Of a stretch of DNA of 5,339 nucleotides, positions 1,874 through 5,339 are shown in pieces. A program made the position numbers and the translations under genes. The notes beneath the pieces were generated by a model that searched no databases, was not told where the DNA came from, and worked only from the letters and a program-made list of their open reading frames with translations. How positions within the stretch are numbered: position 1 is the stretch's first letter; the number at the start of each line of letters is the position of its first letter. The stretch is from a virus (Duplodnaviria; Heunggongvirae; Uroviricota; Caudoviricetes): the IMG/VR virus record IMGVR_UViG_2548876867_000014, one strand, 5' to 3'.

Positions 1874-2070
1874 TACTGGCTGCGACATTTTTGAATAAAA
1901 GCGTCGACATTTCGGCGCTCATAACGAACTACTTTTGCACTGAAACGAATTGGTGCCAGGATAGCCCGATGACGATGCTTAATATTCAACTCACATAGCG
2001 TTTTCTGTGTAATACCTAACTTTTGGCATACTTCATCCGGGGTGAGTAAATCGTCGGGTTTCTCGCTCAT
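1870..2070 (-). CDS. AlpA/excisionase-family helix-turn-helix protein (putative Xis or small regulator)
   Basis: 66-codon ORF. LLTPDEVCQKLGITQKTL is the HTH typical of AlpA/Xis-type phage proteins. Its ATG (2070..2068) overlaps the helicase TGA (ATGA at 2067-2070), and its TAA (1872..1870) overlaps the integrase TAA (TTAA at 1870-1873). Confidence 0.72.
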   Translation of the reverse strand: MSEKPDDLLTPDEVCQKLGITQKTLCELNIKHRHRAILAPIRFSAKVVRYERRNVDAFIQKCRSQY

Positions 2071-3458
2071 GCTATACCTCTCTTTTTCATGGCATCGAGC
2101 AGGATGTCCTGCACTGTTCGTTTTGAGTTGCGCCGCTCCATCACCATTTCGTCCATAGTGTCGGCAGCAATAATGTGGTGAATAAATACCGGACGATTGT
2201 GTCCGGCCTGTATCTGTCTGGTTGGGCCGATACGTTCAATAATTTGCTGATATTGCTCCAGGTCCCACCAGTGTGAGAAAAATACCAGTATATTTCCGCC
2301 GTCCTGCATGTTCAGGCCGTGGCCCGCGCTGGCTGGGTGTGCAAAGAGAACAGGAATCTTTCCGGAATTCCAGTCGCGCAGTGTCTGTGGAGCCTGGTCG
2401 AGGTGACGACCGCGAGGGAATGCTTTAAGCAAGCGTTCAAGATCGTGTTTCCAGTGATAAGCAACCAGCACAGGTGCGCCAGCTGCTTCGGTCAGTATGC
2501 TGTCCAGCGCCTGTAGTTTGGTGTCATGCAGTTCTGACCAACTTCCGGTGTCATCTGTGTATACTGCGCCGCTGGCGATTTGCAGACACTTCAGTGTCTT
2601 TGCCGCGGCGTTCGGTGCTTCGATGCCTTCGCCATTCAGCTCGAGGAACATTTCCTTTTCCATTTCACGATACTGCTGACGGGCCTTCGGCGGCATATCC
2701 ACGCGGATTACGTTATGGATGGGGTCTTTGATATCGAACCAGTCGGCCGCATCCAGCGAGAGGGTCACATCGGCTAACGCTCGCTGTATTTCACCCTGTG
2801 AGTGAGCAAAAGGCTCCAGTTTGGTCCAGCTCTGCCCCGGAAACTGTATCGATTTGAACCAGCGTGAGGTAAACGCGCCGTAAGTGCGCCCGAGACGTTG
2901 CCCCTGGTCCACAAACCACGATTGTCCCCACAAATCTACCAGGCCGTTCGGTGCTGGCGTACCGGTGAGATTTATCCAGCGCCGGACATACTTGTGCGCC
3001 ACTTTGCCCAGCGCCGCCGCGCGCTTACCACCACCTCGCAGCCGGAAGGATTTTAGCCGGGTGCTTTCATCTGGAATGACAGTACCGAACGACCATCGTT
3101 CTCCCAATTCTTCAACCAGCCAGACAAGGTTATCGTAGTTGATTGTGAACACGCTCGCGTTGCTGTTCGCCAGCGCTGTAGAGCGCGCTTTGGCGTTACC
3201 GATGATCGGCTGTACCTCAATATTACGCAGATGCCCCCATTTAACAGCTTCATCAGGCCAAGTGCTTGCTGCAACGCGTAGCGGCGCGAGGACCAGCGCG
3301 GGGCGTGTTTCTGCTCCAGCCATGAAAAGATCTTCCAGCGTGGTGAGTGTCGCTACGGTTTTACCCATCCCCATCCCTGCCCAGATGTTGCCGCGCAGGG
3401 TCTCGATTTGATGATTGATGATGAGATCTTGGTAGGGACGTGGTTTAAAAGTTATCAT
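2067..3458 (-). CDS. SNF2/RAD54-family DNA helicase/ATPase (phage replication-recombination module)
   Basis: 463-codon ORF with ordered motifs: RPYQ (Q motif, residues 7-10), GMGKT (Walker A), DEST (motif II, DExx), LTGTPAPN (motif III), and a C-terminal lobe with QQIIERIGPTRQ (motif VI-like). Start ATG at 3458 is preceded by AGGGA about 8 nt upstream on the - strand. Confidence 0.85.
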   Translation of the reverse strand: MITFKPRPYQDLIINHQIETLRGNIWAGMGMGKTVATLTTLEDLFMAGAETRPALVLAPLRVAASTWPDEAVKWGHLRNIEVQPIIGNAKARSTALANSNASVFTINYDNLVWLVEELGERWSFGTVIPDESTRLKSFRLRGGGKRAAALGKVAHKYVRRWINLTGTPAPNGLVDLWGQSWFVDQGQRLGRTYGAFTSRWFKSIQFPGQSWTKLEPFAHSQGEIQRALADVTLSLDAADWFDIKDPIHNVIRVDMPPKARQQYREMEKEMFLELNGEGIEAPNAAAKTLKCLQIASGAVYTDDTGSWSELHDTKLQALDSILTEAAGAPVLVAYHWKHDLERLLKAFPRGRHLDQAPQTLRDWNSGKIPVLFAHPASAGHGLNMQDGGNILVFFSHWWDLEQYQQIIERIGPTRQIQAGHNRPVFIHHIIAADTMDEMVMERRNSKRTVQDILLDAMKKRGIA

Positions 3459-3481: not shown

Positions 3482-4207
3482 GTGCTCTTGAACATCATGA
3501 ATGTAAAAGATTTATCAATTACAACGGTTCTCTTGGCCGCCCTTTATTTTATGGCTTTTTCTTTTTACAAAGGGTACAGCTCATTTTATGGATTCCCTGT
3601 AAGTTTTATTTCTATTGGGATTGAGGAAATAGTTAAATTTTCTGTTATTGCATTAGGACTTTTGTGCACCTTAGTCGCTTTGCTGCATATTGATACTGAA
3701 GAGAAGAATATTCCATGGTGGGTGTATTTATTTTTCTTCATTTTGGCCTCTTTGCTTTCATACTGGACAATGTATTTATATGGCGGTAGCTCATACCTTT
3801 ATGAAAAATCCATAAGGGATGTGGCTACCCAAGCAATACTGTTGGGATTTATTAGCCCTATCAGTGTCAGGGCAGTATCTGTTTTTATTAGGAATGAATT
3901 TAGAATAAAAAACAAAACTCATGGGGTTATGCTTTTTATATCCATAGCAATGCTTCCTTCAGTCCTTGGGTGGGCATGGGCATACTTATCAGATGAGCCT
4001 CTTTTTTATTCTAAAAAATATGATGCTTATATTATCGAAAGCTATAACGGAAAATTTGTCTTGGGGAACTGTAAAAAAAATAGCTCTGAATTTATGAGTG
4101 TCGAAGGAATTGAGGGGAAATTAATTCCTGTAAGCATAAAAGAAACACAACAACTAAAAGTATGTTTTTTAAAAGCTTCTAAGCTCAAGAAAAATCGCTC
4201 AGAATGA
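3482..4207 (+). CDS. Hypothetical multi-pass membrane protein, AT-rich moron; no recognisable catalytic motif
   Basis: ORF on the strand opposite to all flanking phage genes. Start is GTG 3482 or more likely ATG 3497 (MNVKDL...). Hand counts of sample 60-nt stretches give about one-third G+C (3541-3600), against about 65% in a helicase sample (3001-3060). About five hydrophobic segments: LSITTVLLAALYFMAFSFY, FSVIALGLLCTLVALLHI, IPWWVYLFFFILASLLSYWTMYLY, AILLGFISPISVRAVSVFI, GVMLFISIAMLPSVLGWAWAYL. These are followed by a roughly 70-aa hydrophilic, Lys-rich C-terminal region. Stop TGA at 4205-4207, 5 bp from the convergent VRR-NUC stop. Confidence 0.6.
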   Translation: MLLNIMNVKDLSITTVLLAALYFMAFSFYKGYSSFYGFPVSFISIGIEEIVKFSVIALGLLCTLVALLHIDTEEKNIPWWVYLFFFILASLLSYWTMYLYGGSSYLYEKSIRDVATQAILLGFISPISVRAVSVFIRNEFRIKNKTHGVMLFISIAMLPSVLGWAWAYLSDEPLFYSKKYDAYIIESYNGKFVLGNCKKNSSEFMSVEGIEGKLIPVSIKETQQLKVCFLKASKLKKNRSE

Positions 4208-4212
4208 TTGTC

Positions 4213-4482
4213 TCACAATATCCCCTCTAAATTTTTGCTATCCAGCACCACCACGGTAAAGCCCAGTTTTCGCAGACGTTCATGTTCGCGCAACTGGTCA
4301 GGCCGTGGTGGCTTGCCGGGAGATTTACATTCAACGAAAACGATACGACCGCCTGGTAGCAGGACAATGCGATCCGGTACCGAGCGGTGACCGGGAGATA
4401 CAAACTTAAAGGCCACTCCGCCAGCTTTTTTCACTTCAGCGACGAGGTGCTTTTCGATAAGGCTTTCACGTTCATAGGCCAT
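4213..4482 (-). CDS. VRR-NUC domain nuclease (PD-(D/E)xK superfamily)
   Basis: Signature SVPDRIVLL...IVFVECK (PD...E-x-K) followed by QLREHERLRKLGFTVVV, typical of VRR-NUC proteins. Start taken as ATG 4482 (MAYERE...), which overlaps the end of the upstream gene by 11 nt; an alternative in-frame ATG lies at 4509. Stop TGA at 4215..4213. Confidence 0.8.
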   Translation of the reverse strand: MAYERESLIEKHLVAEVKKAGGVAFKFVSPGHRSVPDRIVLLPGGRIVFVECKSPGKPPRPDQLREHERLRKLGFTVVVLDSKNLEGIL

Positions 4483-4771
4483 CTGAATCCCACTCTTCAA
4501 AAAGCACATTCAATTCCAGTTTCTCTGCCAACGCGTTTTCTGCACGTGCGCCAGCAGAGTACTCCCACTCTTTGAGCATATAAATCGTATCGGCACAGCG
4601 AAGCATTGCGAGGCAGATGTCCATGTACTGAGCCTGTGTCAAACCATTGGGTAAAGTTGCGGGGTTAAGCACAACATATCCCTTGTCCGTTAGCCTTTTT
4701 GCTGCGGAATGAAAGGCCGGGCGGTTAAATTGCTCGTAACCGCTCATCGGCCCGGCAACGTAAACGATCAT
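4472..4771 (-). CDS. DUF4406-like protein (nucleoside 2-deoxyribosyltransferase-like fold)
   Basis: 99-codon ORF. The N-terminus MIVYVAGPMSGYEQFNRPAF and overall size resemble DUF4406 proteins that I recall from phage genomes (memory-based, not searched). Its ATG overlaps the stop of the upstream ORF (ATGA at 4768-4771). Confidence 0.65.
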   Translation of the reverse strand: MIVYVAGPMSGYEQFNRPAFHSAAKRLTDKGYVVLNPATLPNGLTQAQYMDICLAMLRCADTIYMLKEWEYSAGARAENALAEKLELNVLFEEWDSDGL

Positions 4772-4983
4772 TCTTCGACCGCCTTACGCTTTTCACGCAT
4801 GTTCTGCATCAGGCAAAAATCAGATCTGCGTTCACTCCATTCCTGATTCAGTTCGTGATGTGATTCGCGGTTGGCTTTTGCCCAGACCTCCGCTGCCCGG
4901 TCATATTCGCCGGATTGTTCAAGTCGCAAAGCTTCCCTTGCAGCCCTGTAATAAAGTGGATTGTCCCGGTATTTAAATGACAT
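4768..4983 (-). CDS. Small hypothetical protein, tentatively ANR-family (AraC-negative-regulator, Aar-like)
   Basis: 71-codon ORF. The pattern A..EALRLEQSGEY..AAEVWAKA...N.EW..RR.DFC resembles small ANR-family proteins as I recall them. AAGGA lies 9 nt upstream of the ATG on the - strand. It is translationally coupled to the downstream gene. Family assignment is tentative. Confidence 0.5.
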   Translation of the reverse strand: MSFKYRDNPLYYRAAREALRLEQSGEYDRAAEVWAKANRESHHELNQEWSERRSDFCLMQNMREKRKAVEE

Positions 4984-4988
4984 AGGAG

Positions 4989-5339
4989 TTAATCCTTACG
5001 GTAGTGGTACGCCTCAAAACCGCCAGCGTTCAGTGGGATATCGGGCGCCCATTCGGGGTTAGTGGAGAGAAGTGCGGAAAGCGCTTTATCGTTGAAATCT
5101 TCTGTGTCAGGTGCTTCGGTGATCACCTCGTCGTGTACCGTCAGCACAATGCTGTAACCGGCATCTTCGATAAGCGGCATGTTTCCGGCCAGAATGTCGC
5201 GGGCGGCCGCCTGGGTGATGTTCTCCACCAGCTTTCCGCCGTAGGTTTTGAGTCGTTGCCATTTACGCGAATAAGAGTTAACCCCTAGACTGGCCCCCTG
5301 AATCTCCAGACAACCAGTATCACTTAAATAAGTGATAGT
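4989..5339 (-). CDS. Family-A DNA polymerase, C-terminal fragment (N-terminus lies beyond the window edge)
   Basis: The - strand frame is open from 5339 with no stop until TAA at 4991..4989, so the GTG at 5228 in the ORF track is probably internal. The C-terminus [11 protein letters not shown]...[15 protein letters not shown]...[17 protein letters not shown] aligns by eye with E. coli Pol I (recalled from memory: QGTAADIIK...MIMQVHDELVFE...DVPLLVEVGSGENWDQAH), including the motif C HDE. Confidence 0.62.

What the first reader, a model, noticed from the sequence alone, without database searches (positions are those of the whole stretch)
4472..4771. DUF4406-like protein embedded in a phage replication operon
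A small protein with a nucleoside 2-deoxyribosyltransferase-like fold is translationally coupled between a regulator-like protein and the VRR-NUC nuclease. Enzymes of this fold cleave or exchange N-glycosidic bonds of deoxynucleosides or deoxynucleotides. Inside a polymerase-nuclease-helicase module it could contribute to nucleotide-pool manipulation or DNA base modification. Its role in phages is, to my knowledge, not established.
Basis: inference. Interest (0 to 1): 0.5.

Follow-up and report, generated by a model that had tools for sequence, protein, structure and literature searches.

The report
Accessory phage nucleotide N-glycosidase-like gene (DUF4406)
The 99-residue gene is a real, intact member of the large phage protein family DUF4406, a stripped-down relative of enzymes that cut the base off deoxynucleotides; it is an optional cargo gene in this E. 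coli prophage, its chemistry is predictable, and its biological role is still untested.

Summary

The link to the polymerase-nuclease-helicase module is not specific:
- In this prophage family the site between ANR and VRR-NUC alternatively holds DUF7446, a SAM methyltransferase, or nothing.
- All 72 sampled loci with 61-71% identical homologues lack the PolA module; the annotated neighbour clusters place many of them behind lambdoid-type replication genes.

In 7 of 49 sampled lineages the gene is fused to, or followed by, a dNTP pyrophosphohydrolase. This parallels the characterised DutZ-DmtZ pair.

Best reading: an accessory dNMP N-glycosidase for nucleotide-pool curation, possibly counter-defence. 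It is an ordinary member of a known but uncharacterised family, already annotated in RefSeq. Here the prophage is defective, because an IS end truncates PolA.

The parts
4472..4771 (-). DUF4406 gene (99 aa). A minimal NDT-fold protein with the predicted active-site motif Y4, G7-P8-M9-S10-G11, N16, S72-A-G74-A75-R-A-E78.
4768..4983 (-). ANR-family small regulator (71 aa), immediately upstream. Its stop codon overlaps the DUF4406 start (ATGA).
   Evidence: NCBIfam NF033650 E 1e-19, 70.1 bits against a cut-off of 32. Pfam PerC hit is below threshold. Sequence.
4213..4482 (-). VRR-NUC / PD-(D/E)XK nuclease gene, immediately downstream. It overlaps the DUF4406 3' end by 11 nt; the longest ORF would start at 4509.
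   Evidence: PHROG 93 endonuclease E 1.6e-32. Pfam VRR_NUC E 0.001, below the cut-off. RefSeq annotation in L001.
4989..5285 (-). C-terminal remnant of a family A DNA polymerase, the first gene of the operon. It is cut off at about 5285 by an insertion-sequence end.
   Evidence: PHROG 7766, 10285 and 17 DNA polymerase. The intact 2064-bp gene is seen in L001. Homology to related prophages stops at 5285.
5286..5339 (.). Terminal part of a multicopy insertion sequence. From memory of the sequence it is an IS2 end; that identification was not confirmed with a tool.
   Evidence: Bases 5270-5339 match 18,436 places in 4,488 of 5,426 E. coli genomes, on chromosomes and plasmids. The prophage alignment ends at 5285.
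2067..3458 (-). SNF2-family helicase of the same replication module, further downstream.
   Evidence: Pfam SNF2-rel_dom E 9e-12. PHROG 62 DNA helicase E 9e-157.

Best explanation
The gene encodes a catalytically competent, minimal (four-strand) member of the nucleoside 2-deoxyribosyltransferase superfamily. It most likely hydrolyses the N-glycosidic bond of a (deoxy)nucleoside 5'-monophosphate, giving free base plus (deoxy)ribose 5-phosphate.

Proposed mechanism, by analogy with NDT, DNPH1/Rcl and DmtZ (inferred). Glu78 attacks C1' to form a covalent sugar-phosphate-enzyme intermediate. Tyr4 positions the Glu. The loop after strand 1 (G7-P8-M9-S10-G11), together with Ser72-Ala73-Gly74, holds the 5'-phosphate. 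An acidic residue on helix 2 (Asp51 here) may assist departure of the base.

Biological role. It is an optional early-operon cargo gene. It would remove or convert one class of dNMP during lytic DNA replication, either as pool sanitation or pool skewing. In phages that also carry a dNTP pyrophosphohydrolase, it would act downstream of that enzyme.

Shown: family, fold, motif conservation, genomic variability, and fusions or adjacency. Inferred: activity, substrate and role.

For: 2. Sequence-level link to NDT. A DUF4406 profile hits the T. brucei NDT 2a0k with E 1.4e-4 over the whole domain, pairing S72-x-G-A-x-x-E78 with D-C-G-T-A-F-E. A Gordonia phage member also touches PF05014 (E 1.6e-4).

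3. Same register against DNPH1 and DmtZ. Y4 pairs with Tyr13/Tyr6, S72 with Ser87/Thr97, and E78 with Glu93/Glu103. These hhalign scores are weak, but the register agrees with point 2.

4. Conservation. G7, N16, F20, P37, S72, G74, A75, E78 and A82 are invariant across actinophage, Pseudomonas, Vibrio and enteric members at 28-50% identity. S72 is present in 72 of 74 representatives at 39-59% identity, and E78 in 70 of 74.

5. Phosphate specificity. Ser, not Asp, sits at the 5'-OH/5'-phosphate position. This is the known discriminator between dNMP hydrolases and nucleoside transferases (established for Rcl versus NDT; restated in PMC12884076).

6. Links to dNTP pyrophosphohydrolases. Mycobacterium phage Redno2 gp158 is a DUF4406 + MazG-like (PRA-PH) fusion followed by a PF18909 gene. 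In Gage the next gene is PF18909. In Pseudomonas MD8 the next gene is PF04447. Enteric loci L026 and L036 have PF04447 1-1.5 kb downstream. In all, 7 of 49 lineages show such a link.

7. Precedent. The phage DutZ (dNTP to dNMP) plus DmtZ (dAMP hydrolase/transferase) pair occurs as neighbours or as a fusion.

8. Neighbourhood. Neighbours in 38 other lineages are DNA-metabolism genes: helicases, DNA methylases, RNR, SSB and RusA.
Against: No activity has been measured for any DUF4406 protein.

The domain ends after strand 4. It lacks the C-terminal part that in NDT and Rcl supplies the second phosphate-binding Ser and residues from the partner subunit. The active site may therefore be built differently.

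The third residue of the catalytic triad is not conserved. Position 53, the Asp69/Asn77 equivalent by hhalign, is Cys here. Asp51 is present in only 34 of 74 representatives.

The pyrophosphohydrolase link holds in a minority of lineages. It is absent from this prophage and did not appear among the top 25 families in the independent 38-lineage census.

The hhalign comparisons with single sequences are statistically weak (probability below 1%).

The variable-slot context fits a defence or counter-defence cargo gene equally well.
Confidence: 0.5

Rival explanations
1. Counter-defence enzyme. The same N-glycosidase chemistry is used, but the role is to destroy a nucleotide that host immunity needs. 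Examples are a dNMP precursor or danger signal (dAMP for Kongming dITP signalling, m6-dAMP for PUA-Cal-HAD) or an ADP-ribose-type messenger. The purpose would not be to curate the phage's own replication pool.
Against: There is no hit in PADLOC and no anti-defence report for the family. Homologues occur widely in lytic actinophages within DNA-metabolism clusters and next to dNTP pyrophosphohydrolases. That fits pool metabolism without invoking immunity. The protein is closer to NDT-type enzymes than to TIR.
Confidence: 0.2
2. A genuine nucleoside 2'-deoxyribosyltransferase. It would exchange bases between deoxynucleosides for salvage, as many database annotations state.
For: PHROG 355 and many GenBank records use this name. 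The fold and the catalytic Glu motif are shared with NDTs. An NDT (PF05014) from presumed dZ phages showed dA-preferring transfer activity.
Against: The window protein does not reach PF05014 at E 0.01 or better. The Asp that binds the 5'-OH in NDTs is an invariant Ser here. The C-terminal segment that completes the NDT base pocket across the dimer is absent: the domain is about 91 aa against 140-160. The database names are transferred by fold similarity, not from experiments.
Confidence: 0.1
3. A non-catalytic nucleotide binder: a sponge or sensor that sequesters a nucleotide or signalling molecule, or a regulatory partner of a replication protein.
For: The protein is very small (99 aa) and lacks the C-terminal half of the canonical enzymes. 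The superfamily contains non-catalytic sensor versions (PMC9503650). The third triad residue is not conserved.
Against: The residues conserved across the whole family are exactly the catalytic Glu and the phosphate-loop residues. The fusion to a MazG-like hydrolase suggests a two-step enzymatic pathway.
Confidence: 0.1
4. An enzyme that acts on DNA. It would be either a DNA glycosylase or a base-exchange enzyme that installs a modified base in phage DNA, working with the polymerase module and, in intact relatives, the Nmad5 gene.
For: The gene lies between the polymerase and a nuclease. Intact relatives carry an Nmad5 'putative nucleotide modification' gene. DNA methyltransferases are frequent neighbours or alternative occupants of the slot.
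Against: No characterised member of this fold acts on polymeric DNA. The PolA module and Nmad5 are absent from most loci that carry close homologues. No base-synthesis genes accompany it. The module exists without DUF4406.
Confidence: 0.05

Closest known systems
DNPH1 / Rcl (2'-deoxynucleoside 5'-phosphate N-hydrolase; PDB 2khz, 4fyi, 4p5e)
   Different: Sequence similarity is not significant on its own (hhalign E 0.08). DUF4406 is about 50 residues shorter and lacks strand 5, the C-terminal helices and the second phosphate-binding Ser. The Asp69 equivalent is Cys53 here. The substrate is unknown.
DmtZ of Z-genome actinophages (Gordonia phage Ghobes gp53; PMC12884076)
   Same: It is phage-encoded and belongs to the NDT superfamily. 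It acts on a dNMP (dAMP) and is paired or fused with a dNTP pyrophosphohydrolase (DutZ, DUF5664). Several DUF4406 genes show the same logic with MazG-like, PF18909 or PF04447 partners. The P-[DN]-G and x-G-x-x-x-E motifs align in the same register.
   Different: It is a different family: about 160 aa, five strands, no DUF4406 Pfam hit and only a weak PF05014 hit. hhalign against the DUF4406 profile is not significant. DmtZ works within a PurZ0 Z-base pathway, which this prophage lacks.
Nucleoside 2'-deoxyribosyltransferases (PF05014; e.g. 1f8x, 6evs, 2a0k)
   Different: The 5'-OH-binding Asp is replaced by Ser, and the C-terminal base-pocket elements are missing. The window protein does not score on PF05014.
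MilB / BlsM (CMP / hydroxymethyl-CMP N-glycosidases; 4ohr, 4jen)
   Different: They are ribonucleotide-specific enzymes of antibiotic biosynthesis, and they are larger. There is no genomic similarity.
PA1492 of Pseudomonas aeruginosa (PDB 1t1j; DUF1937)
   Different: It is itself uncharacterised, so it adds no functional information. Sequence similarity is marginal (E 0.13).
TIR domains, including the TIR-domain gene (PADLOC PDC-S35) of sister prophages
   Different: There is no detectable sequence relation (hhalign probability 0.2%). TIR proteins act on NAD+. DUF4406 groups with NDT-type enzymes.

Membership tests
Pfam DUF4406 (PF14359) | Score above the curated gathering threshold over the full model | tested here: met
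   116.7 bits against a cut-off of 22, E 6.3e-34, residues 1-90 on model positions 1-90 of 91.
Pfam DUF4406 (PF14359) | Family-wide conserved residues present (G7, N16, F20, P37, S72, G74, A75, E78, A82) | tested here: met
   All are present in the window protein. They are invariant in A3 (16 diverse members) and at 89% or more in A2 (N16 66/74; others at least 67/74).
Nucleoside 2-deoxyribosyltransferase superfamily (fold level) | Three-layer alpha/beta fold with a parallel sheet, superposable on NDT, Rcl and MilB | tested here: met
Nucleoside 2-deoxyribosyltransferase superfamily (fold level) | Catalytic Glu at the start of the helix after strand 3, within a [DS]-x-G-x-x-x-E motif | tested here: met
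   E78 aligns with the Glu of D-C-G-T-A-F-E in 2a0k (E 1.4e-4), with Glu of DNPH1 and with Glu103 of DmtZ. It is present in 70 of 74 and 16 of 16 family members.
Nucleoside 2-deoxyribosyltransferase superfamily (fold level) | Tyr on strand 1 that positions the Glu | tested here: met
   Y4 aligns with Tyr of Y-F-C-G in DNPH1. Y or F is present in 68 of 74 representatives.
Nucleoside 2-deoxyribosyltransferase superfamily (fold level) | Asp or Asn on helix 2 as the third member of the catalytic triad | tested here: inconclusive
   hhalign puts the Asp69/Asn77 equivalent at C53, whereas HMMER puts it at D51. D51 occurs in 34 of 74 representatives and D53 in 8 of 74.
Nucleoside 2'-deoxyribosyltransferase proper (PF05014, EC 2.4.2.6) | Pfam PF05014 score above threshold | tested here: not met
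   No PF05014 hit at E 0.01 or better for the window protein.
Nucleoside 2'-deoxyribosyltransferase proper (PF05014, EC 2.4.2.6) | Asp binding the free 5'-OH of the nucleoside (Asp92 in the L. leichmannii enzyme) | tested here: not met
   The aligned position is the invariant Ser72.
Nucleoside 2'-deoxyribosyltransferase proper (PF05014, EC 2.4.2.6) | Base-exchange activity on deoxynucleosides | not testable with these tools
   Requires an enzyme assay.
DNPH1/Rcl-type dNMP N-hydrolases | Small uncharged residue (Ser) instead of Asp at the 5' position, allowing a 5'-phosphate | tested here: met
   S72 aligns with Ser of P-S-L-G-V-G-Y-E. The Ser-to-Glu spacing of 6 is identical.
DNPH1/Rcl-type dNMP N-hydrolases | Second phosphate-binding Ser on the loop after strand 4, and a C-terminal dimer segment | tested here: not met
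   The DUF4406 domain ends after strand 4 (residues 88-91). Residues 96-99 are disordered in the model.
DNPH1/Rcl-type dNMP N-hydrolases | Hydrolysis of dNMP to base plus deoxyribose 5-phosphate | not testable with these tools
   Requires an enzyme assay, for example LC-MS or the DeoC-coupled assay used for DmtZ.
DmtZ family (phage dAMP hydrolase / dR5P transferase) | Sequence homology to Ghobes or Wayne DmtZ and co-occurrence with PurZ0 and DutZ | tested here: not met
   hhalign probability 0.5%. No PurZ or Dut genes are present in the window or in the annotated 35 kb of the intact relative L001.
Known anti-phage defence proteins (PADLOC) | Match to any PADLOC model | tested here: not met
   No hit at E 0.01 or better.

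The most novel reading that the evidence does not exclude
DUF4406 proteins could be a very large, unrecognised class of phage counter-defence or nucleotide-rewriting enzymes. One version: they are minimal dNMP N-glycosidases that erase dNMP-type danger signals or precursors, such as dAMP feeding Kongming dITP signalling or m6-dAMP sensed by PUA-Cal-HAD. Another version: like DmtZ, they transfer deoxyribose 5-phosphate onto a non-canonical base. The exchangeable slot in this prophage would then be an anti-defence cargo site.
Probability: 0.12. Interest if true: 0.75.

Novelty: new member of a known kind. Interest (0 to 1): 0.3.

Why it matters
DUF4406 is one of the larger uncharacterised phage enzyme families. 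It has about 18,000 clusters at 50% identity and occurs in 696 of 50,697 sequenced phage records. This work gives it a concrete, cheap-to-test hypothesis: a Glu78-dependent dNMP N-glycosidase that in some phages acts after a dNTP pyrophosphohydrolase. Confirmation would extend the newly found DutZ-DmtZ logic well beyond Z-genome phages. It would also correct the widespread 'nucleoside 2-deoxyribosyltransferase' label, and 'deoxycytidylate deaminase' where that has been applied. The particular copy in this window adds little. It is a typical family member, already annotated in RefSeq, sitting in a defective prophage.

Tried and rejected
- Sequence search of the PDB with the single protein and with a close-homologue profile gave nothing meaningful. 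Only the broader profile reached an NDT.
- NCBIfam and PADLOC gave no hit for the DUF4406 protein.
- Long N- or C-terminal extensions in ten DUF4406 fusion representatives have no Pfam domain, so they gave no functional clue.
- The TIR-like protein that occupies the neighbouring slot in phage vB_EcoM-689R2 is not detectably related to DUF4406. I rejected the idea that the two are divergent alleles.
- The Pfam census of two genes either side in 38 further lineages found no universal partner gene, only a general DNA-metabolism context. I therefore do not claim an obligate two-gene system.
- The first attempt to fetch distant loci with a very diverse alignment failed for lack of conserved stretches. 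A single-protein query for the Gage homologue returned one locus.
- The Iyer et al. 2013 paper that defines Nmad5 is not held. The Nmad5 link rests on RefSeq naming and on PMC11846954.
- GC content gives no sign that the DUF4406 gene is compositionally foreign: about 50%, like its neighbours.
- The promoter and terminator consensus scan found no minus-strand site between the PolA remnant and VRR-NUC; overall site counts did not exceed the shuffled controls.

Full report
**What is there**

The window is the left end of an E. coli-type prophage integrated next to yfhL. In order it holds:
- the ferredoxin gene yfhL (1-261, -);
- a tyrosine integrase (470-1873, +);
- a small HTH protein (1870-2070, -);
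- an SNF2 helicase (2067-3458, -);
- an AT-rich ORF on the opposite strand (3482-4207, +);
- a VRR-NUC nuclease, the DUF4406 ORF (4472-4771, -) and an ANR-family small regulator (4768-4983, -);
- the last ~100 codons of a family A DNA polymerase.

Homology to intact prophages stops at 5285. The remaining 54 bases belong to a multicopy element found in 4,488 of 5,426 E. coli genomes. From memory it is an IS2 end. In this genome the polymerase gene, and with it the head of the operon, is therefore disrupted. The intact version is in E. coli 97-3250 (L001). There a 2,064-bp PolA is followed upstream by Nmad5, DUF2815, DUF2800, a LexA-like repressor and a VapE primase.

**Checking the observation**

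The 99-aa ORF matches Pfam DUF4406 end to end (E 6.3e-34) and PHROG 355 (E 3.8e-44). Its ATG overlaps the TGA of the ANR gene (ATGA), and an AAGGCGG stretch lies 7-10 nt upstream. Its last 11 nt overlap the VRR-NUC start used by RefSeq. The consensus scan found no promoter- or terminator-like site on the minus strand between the PolA remnant and VRR-NUC. GC content is about 50%, like the neighbours. Translational coupling is plausible but inferred.

**Fold and active site**

An AlphaFold2 model built on 48 homologues is confident (pLDDT 91.5, pTM 0.84). Its topology is b1(2-6)-a1-b2(33-35)-a2(46-58)-b3(62-65)-a3(73-84)-b4(88-91).

A profile of 74 family representatives hits the T. brucei NDT 2a0k at E 1.4e-4. 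That alignment places S72-A-G-A-R-A-E78 on D-C-G-T-A-F-E, the motif carrying the nucleophilic Glu. Weak hhalign comparisons with human DNPH1 and with phage DmtZ give the same register. Y4 pairs with Tyr13/Tyr6, S72 with Ser87/Thr97, and E78 with Glu93/Glu103. The DNPH1 sequence was first verified against PDB entries.

Across members from actinophages, Pseudomonas, Vibrio and enteric phages (28-50% identity), G7, N16, F20, P37, L66, S72, G74, A75, E78 and A82 are invariant. Among the 74 representatives, S72 is present in 72 and E78 in 70. A Ser in place of the 5'-OH-binding Asp marks the dNMP hydrolases rather than the nucleoside transferases. This is established for Rcl versus NDT and is restated in PMC12884076.

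Two features depart from the canonical enzymes:
- The domain stops after strand 4, so the C-terminal elements that complete the NDT/Rcl pocket are missing.
- The third triad residue is not conserved. Position 53 is Cys here, and Asp51 is present in only 34 of 74 representatives.

**How common it is**

The family is very large:
- 18,177 clusters at 50% identity reach E 1e-3 or better, and 6,611 reach 1e-10.
- tblastn finds it in 696 of 50,697 phage records, chiefly Mycobacterium, Vibrio, Gordonia, Arthrobacter and Pseudomonas phages.
- Depositors call it by several names: nucleoside deoxyribosyltransferase, hydrolase, deoxycytidylate deaminase or hypothetical protein.
- Only three held papers mention DUF4406, two of the three read, both only in passing.

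**Is it part of the polymerase-nuclease-helicase module? No.**

Of 80 IMG/VR loci encoding close homologues, only the eight that are 97-100% identical carry PolA, SNF2, VRR-NUC, DUF2800 and DUF2815. The 72 loci at 61-71% identity lack all of these. The largest neighbour clusters show the gene downstream of lambdoid-type replication genes (an O-like protein, a DnaC/IstB-like ATPase or DnaB). DUF1627 and DUF977 come next, and nin-region-type genes such as DUF968 follow.

Within the prophage family of the window itself, 159 E. coli genomes match the region but only 68 carry the DUF4406 arrangement. The position between ANR and VRR-NUC holds different things in different genomes:
- DUF7446 in strain 2011C-4315;
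- a class I SAM methyltransferase in RIVM_C029670;
- nothing in ECONIH2.

A TIR-domain gene (PADLOC candidate PDC-S35, E 1e-108) appears between PolA and ANR in some genomes and in phage vB_EcoM-689R2. The gene is therefore an exchangeable accessory in a variable stretch of the early operon.

**Functional links elsewhere**

- Mycobacterium phage Redno2 gp158 is a fusion of DUF4406 with a MazG-like (PRA-PH) NTP pyrophosphohydrolase domain.
- The gene after it, and the gene after the DUF4406 gene of phage Gage, are PF18909 dATP/dGTP diphosphohydrolases (E 1e-23 and 2e-27).
- In Pseudomonas phage MD8 and its relatives the next gene is PF04447, a dATP/dGTP pyrophosphohydrolase.
- Enteric loci L026 and L036 carry PF04447 (E 1e-42) 1-1.5 kb downstream.

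In all, 7 of 49 sampled DUF4406 lineages show such a partner within 1.5 kb downstream on the same strand.

This is a minority. In an independent census of 150 neighbour genes from 38 other lineages, the commonest families were helicases, DNA methylases, metallophosphoesterases, class II RNR, SSB and RusA, with no single dominant partner. The prophage of the window has no such pyrophosphohydrolase.

**Relation to current knowledge**

A 2026 study characterised DmtZ, a phage NDT-superfamily enzyme. It hydrolyses dAMP and transfers deoxyribose 5-phosphate to 2-aminoadenine. It is encoded beside, or fused to, the dNTP pyrophosphohydrolase DutZ, and DUF5664 (PF18909) is a dATP/dGTP/dUTP pyrophosphohydrolase in the same phages (PMC12884076). 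DmtZ is a different family: it has no DUF4406 hit, only a weak PF05014 hit, and is not significant by hhalign. The two-step logic, dNTP to dNMP to free base, is nonetheless the same as in the DUF4406 fusions.

Two other reports bear on a possible counter-defence role:
- T5 Dmp shows that removing dAMP defeats the Kongming system.
- m6-dAMP has been reported as an immune trigger.

Such a role for a dNMP glycosidase is therefore conceivable, and it would fit the variable-slot context. Nothing tested here supports it directly.

**Verdict**

The gene is a genuine, intact, typical member of DUF4406. Its most likely mechanism is Glu78-dependent N-glycosidic cleavage of a nucleoside 5'-monophosphate (confidence about 0.5). 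Its most likely role is optional curation of the nucleotide pool during lytic replication. Counter-defence is the main rival for the biological role.

The finding is not novel as a sequence feature, because RefSeq already names it. It is not specifically tied to the replication module, and it sits in a prophage whose polymerase gene is broken. Its value lies in the family-level, testable hypothesis.

Noticed in passing
window 5286-5339 (junction at about 5285): The end of a multicopy insertion sequence interrupts the DNA polymerase gene and leaves only its C-terminal ~100 codons. From memory it is an IS2 end. It occurs at 18,436 places in 4,488 E. coli genomes. The prophage in this genome is therefore defective, and the operon containing DUF4406 has lost its upstream part.
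   Followed up: partly
window 3482-4207 (+): A 241-aa ORF lies on the opposite strand, between the helicase and VRR-NUC. It is AT-rich (33-36% GC against about 50-56% around it) and appears to encode a multi-pass membrane protein. It has a promoter-like site at 3429-3458 and no hit in Pfam, PHROGs, NCBIfam or PADLOC. In relatives the same gap holds a shorter version, a DUF6338 gene or a Dcm methyltransferase, so it looks like a moron insertion site.
   Followed up: partly
window 4768-4983 (-): The 'regulator-like' neighbour is an ANR-family protein, the AraC-negative-regulator type (NCBIfam E 1e-19). Its PerC hit is below threshold. It is retained in nearly all variants of this prophage family while the genes on either side change. 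A prophage-borne ANR in pathogenic E. coli lineages might affect host virulence regulation.
   Followed up: partly
L002 3105-3866; L225 1726-2487: In sister prophages and phages a TIR-domain gene sits between PolA and ANR. It matches the PADLOC candidate defence family PDC-S35 (E 1e-108) and weakly matches CBASS Cap12 TIR models. Finding a candidate defence gene inside an early replication operon is unusual.
   Followed up: partly
window protein residues 49-53 (Y-M-D-I-C): In the enteric clade a Cys (C53, 46 of 48 sequences) occupies the position that hhalign equates with the catalytic Asp/Asn of Rcl and DmtZ, and an Asp sits two residues earlier (D51). Actinophage members instead have Asp at position 53. 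It is unexplained whether this reflects a register shift or a change in chemistry.
   Followed up: no
proteins P0145, P0148, P0153, P0154, P0166, P0187, P0197: Many DUF4406 representatives carry one to three copies of an N-terminal module of about 60-90 aa with a recurring '...WP...AP..GW.W' pattern. It has no Pfam match in those scanned, P0145 and P0166. It may be an uncharacterised domain that targets or regulates the enzyme.
   Followed up: no
L086 3318-3797; L083 4223-4708: Mycobacteriophage proteins whose best PHROG match, phrog_2252 (for Gage gp114), and, for Redno2 gp159, GenBank label 'endolysin; inhibits RNA polymerase', match Pfam PF18909 (dATP/dGTP diphosphohydrolase N-terminal domain, E 1e-23 to 2e-27). 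That label is probably wrong. Likewise, Arthrobacter phage Kuleana gp54 is annotated 'deoxycytidylate deaminase' but contains only a DUF4406 domain.
   Followed up: partly
L001 22798-23439: Intact relatives of this prophage encode an Nmad5 'putative nucleotide modification' protein next to PolA. A point mutation in Nmad5 of Dhillonvirus phages lets them escape the Tmn defence system (PMC11846954). Whether Nmad5 and DUF4406 cooperate was not tested. Most loci with DUF4406 lack Nmad5.
   Followed up: partly
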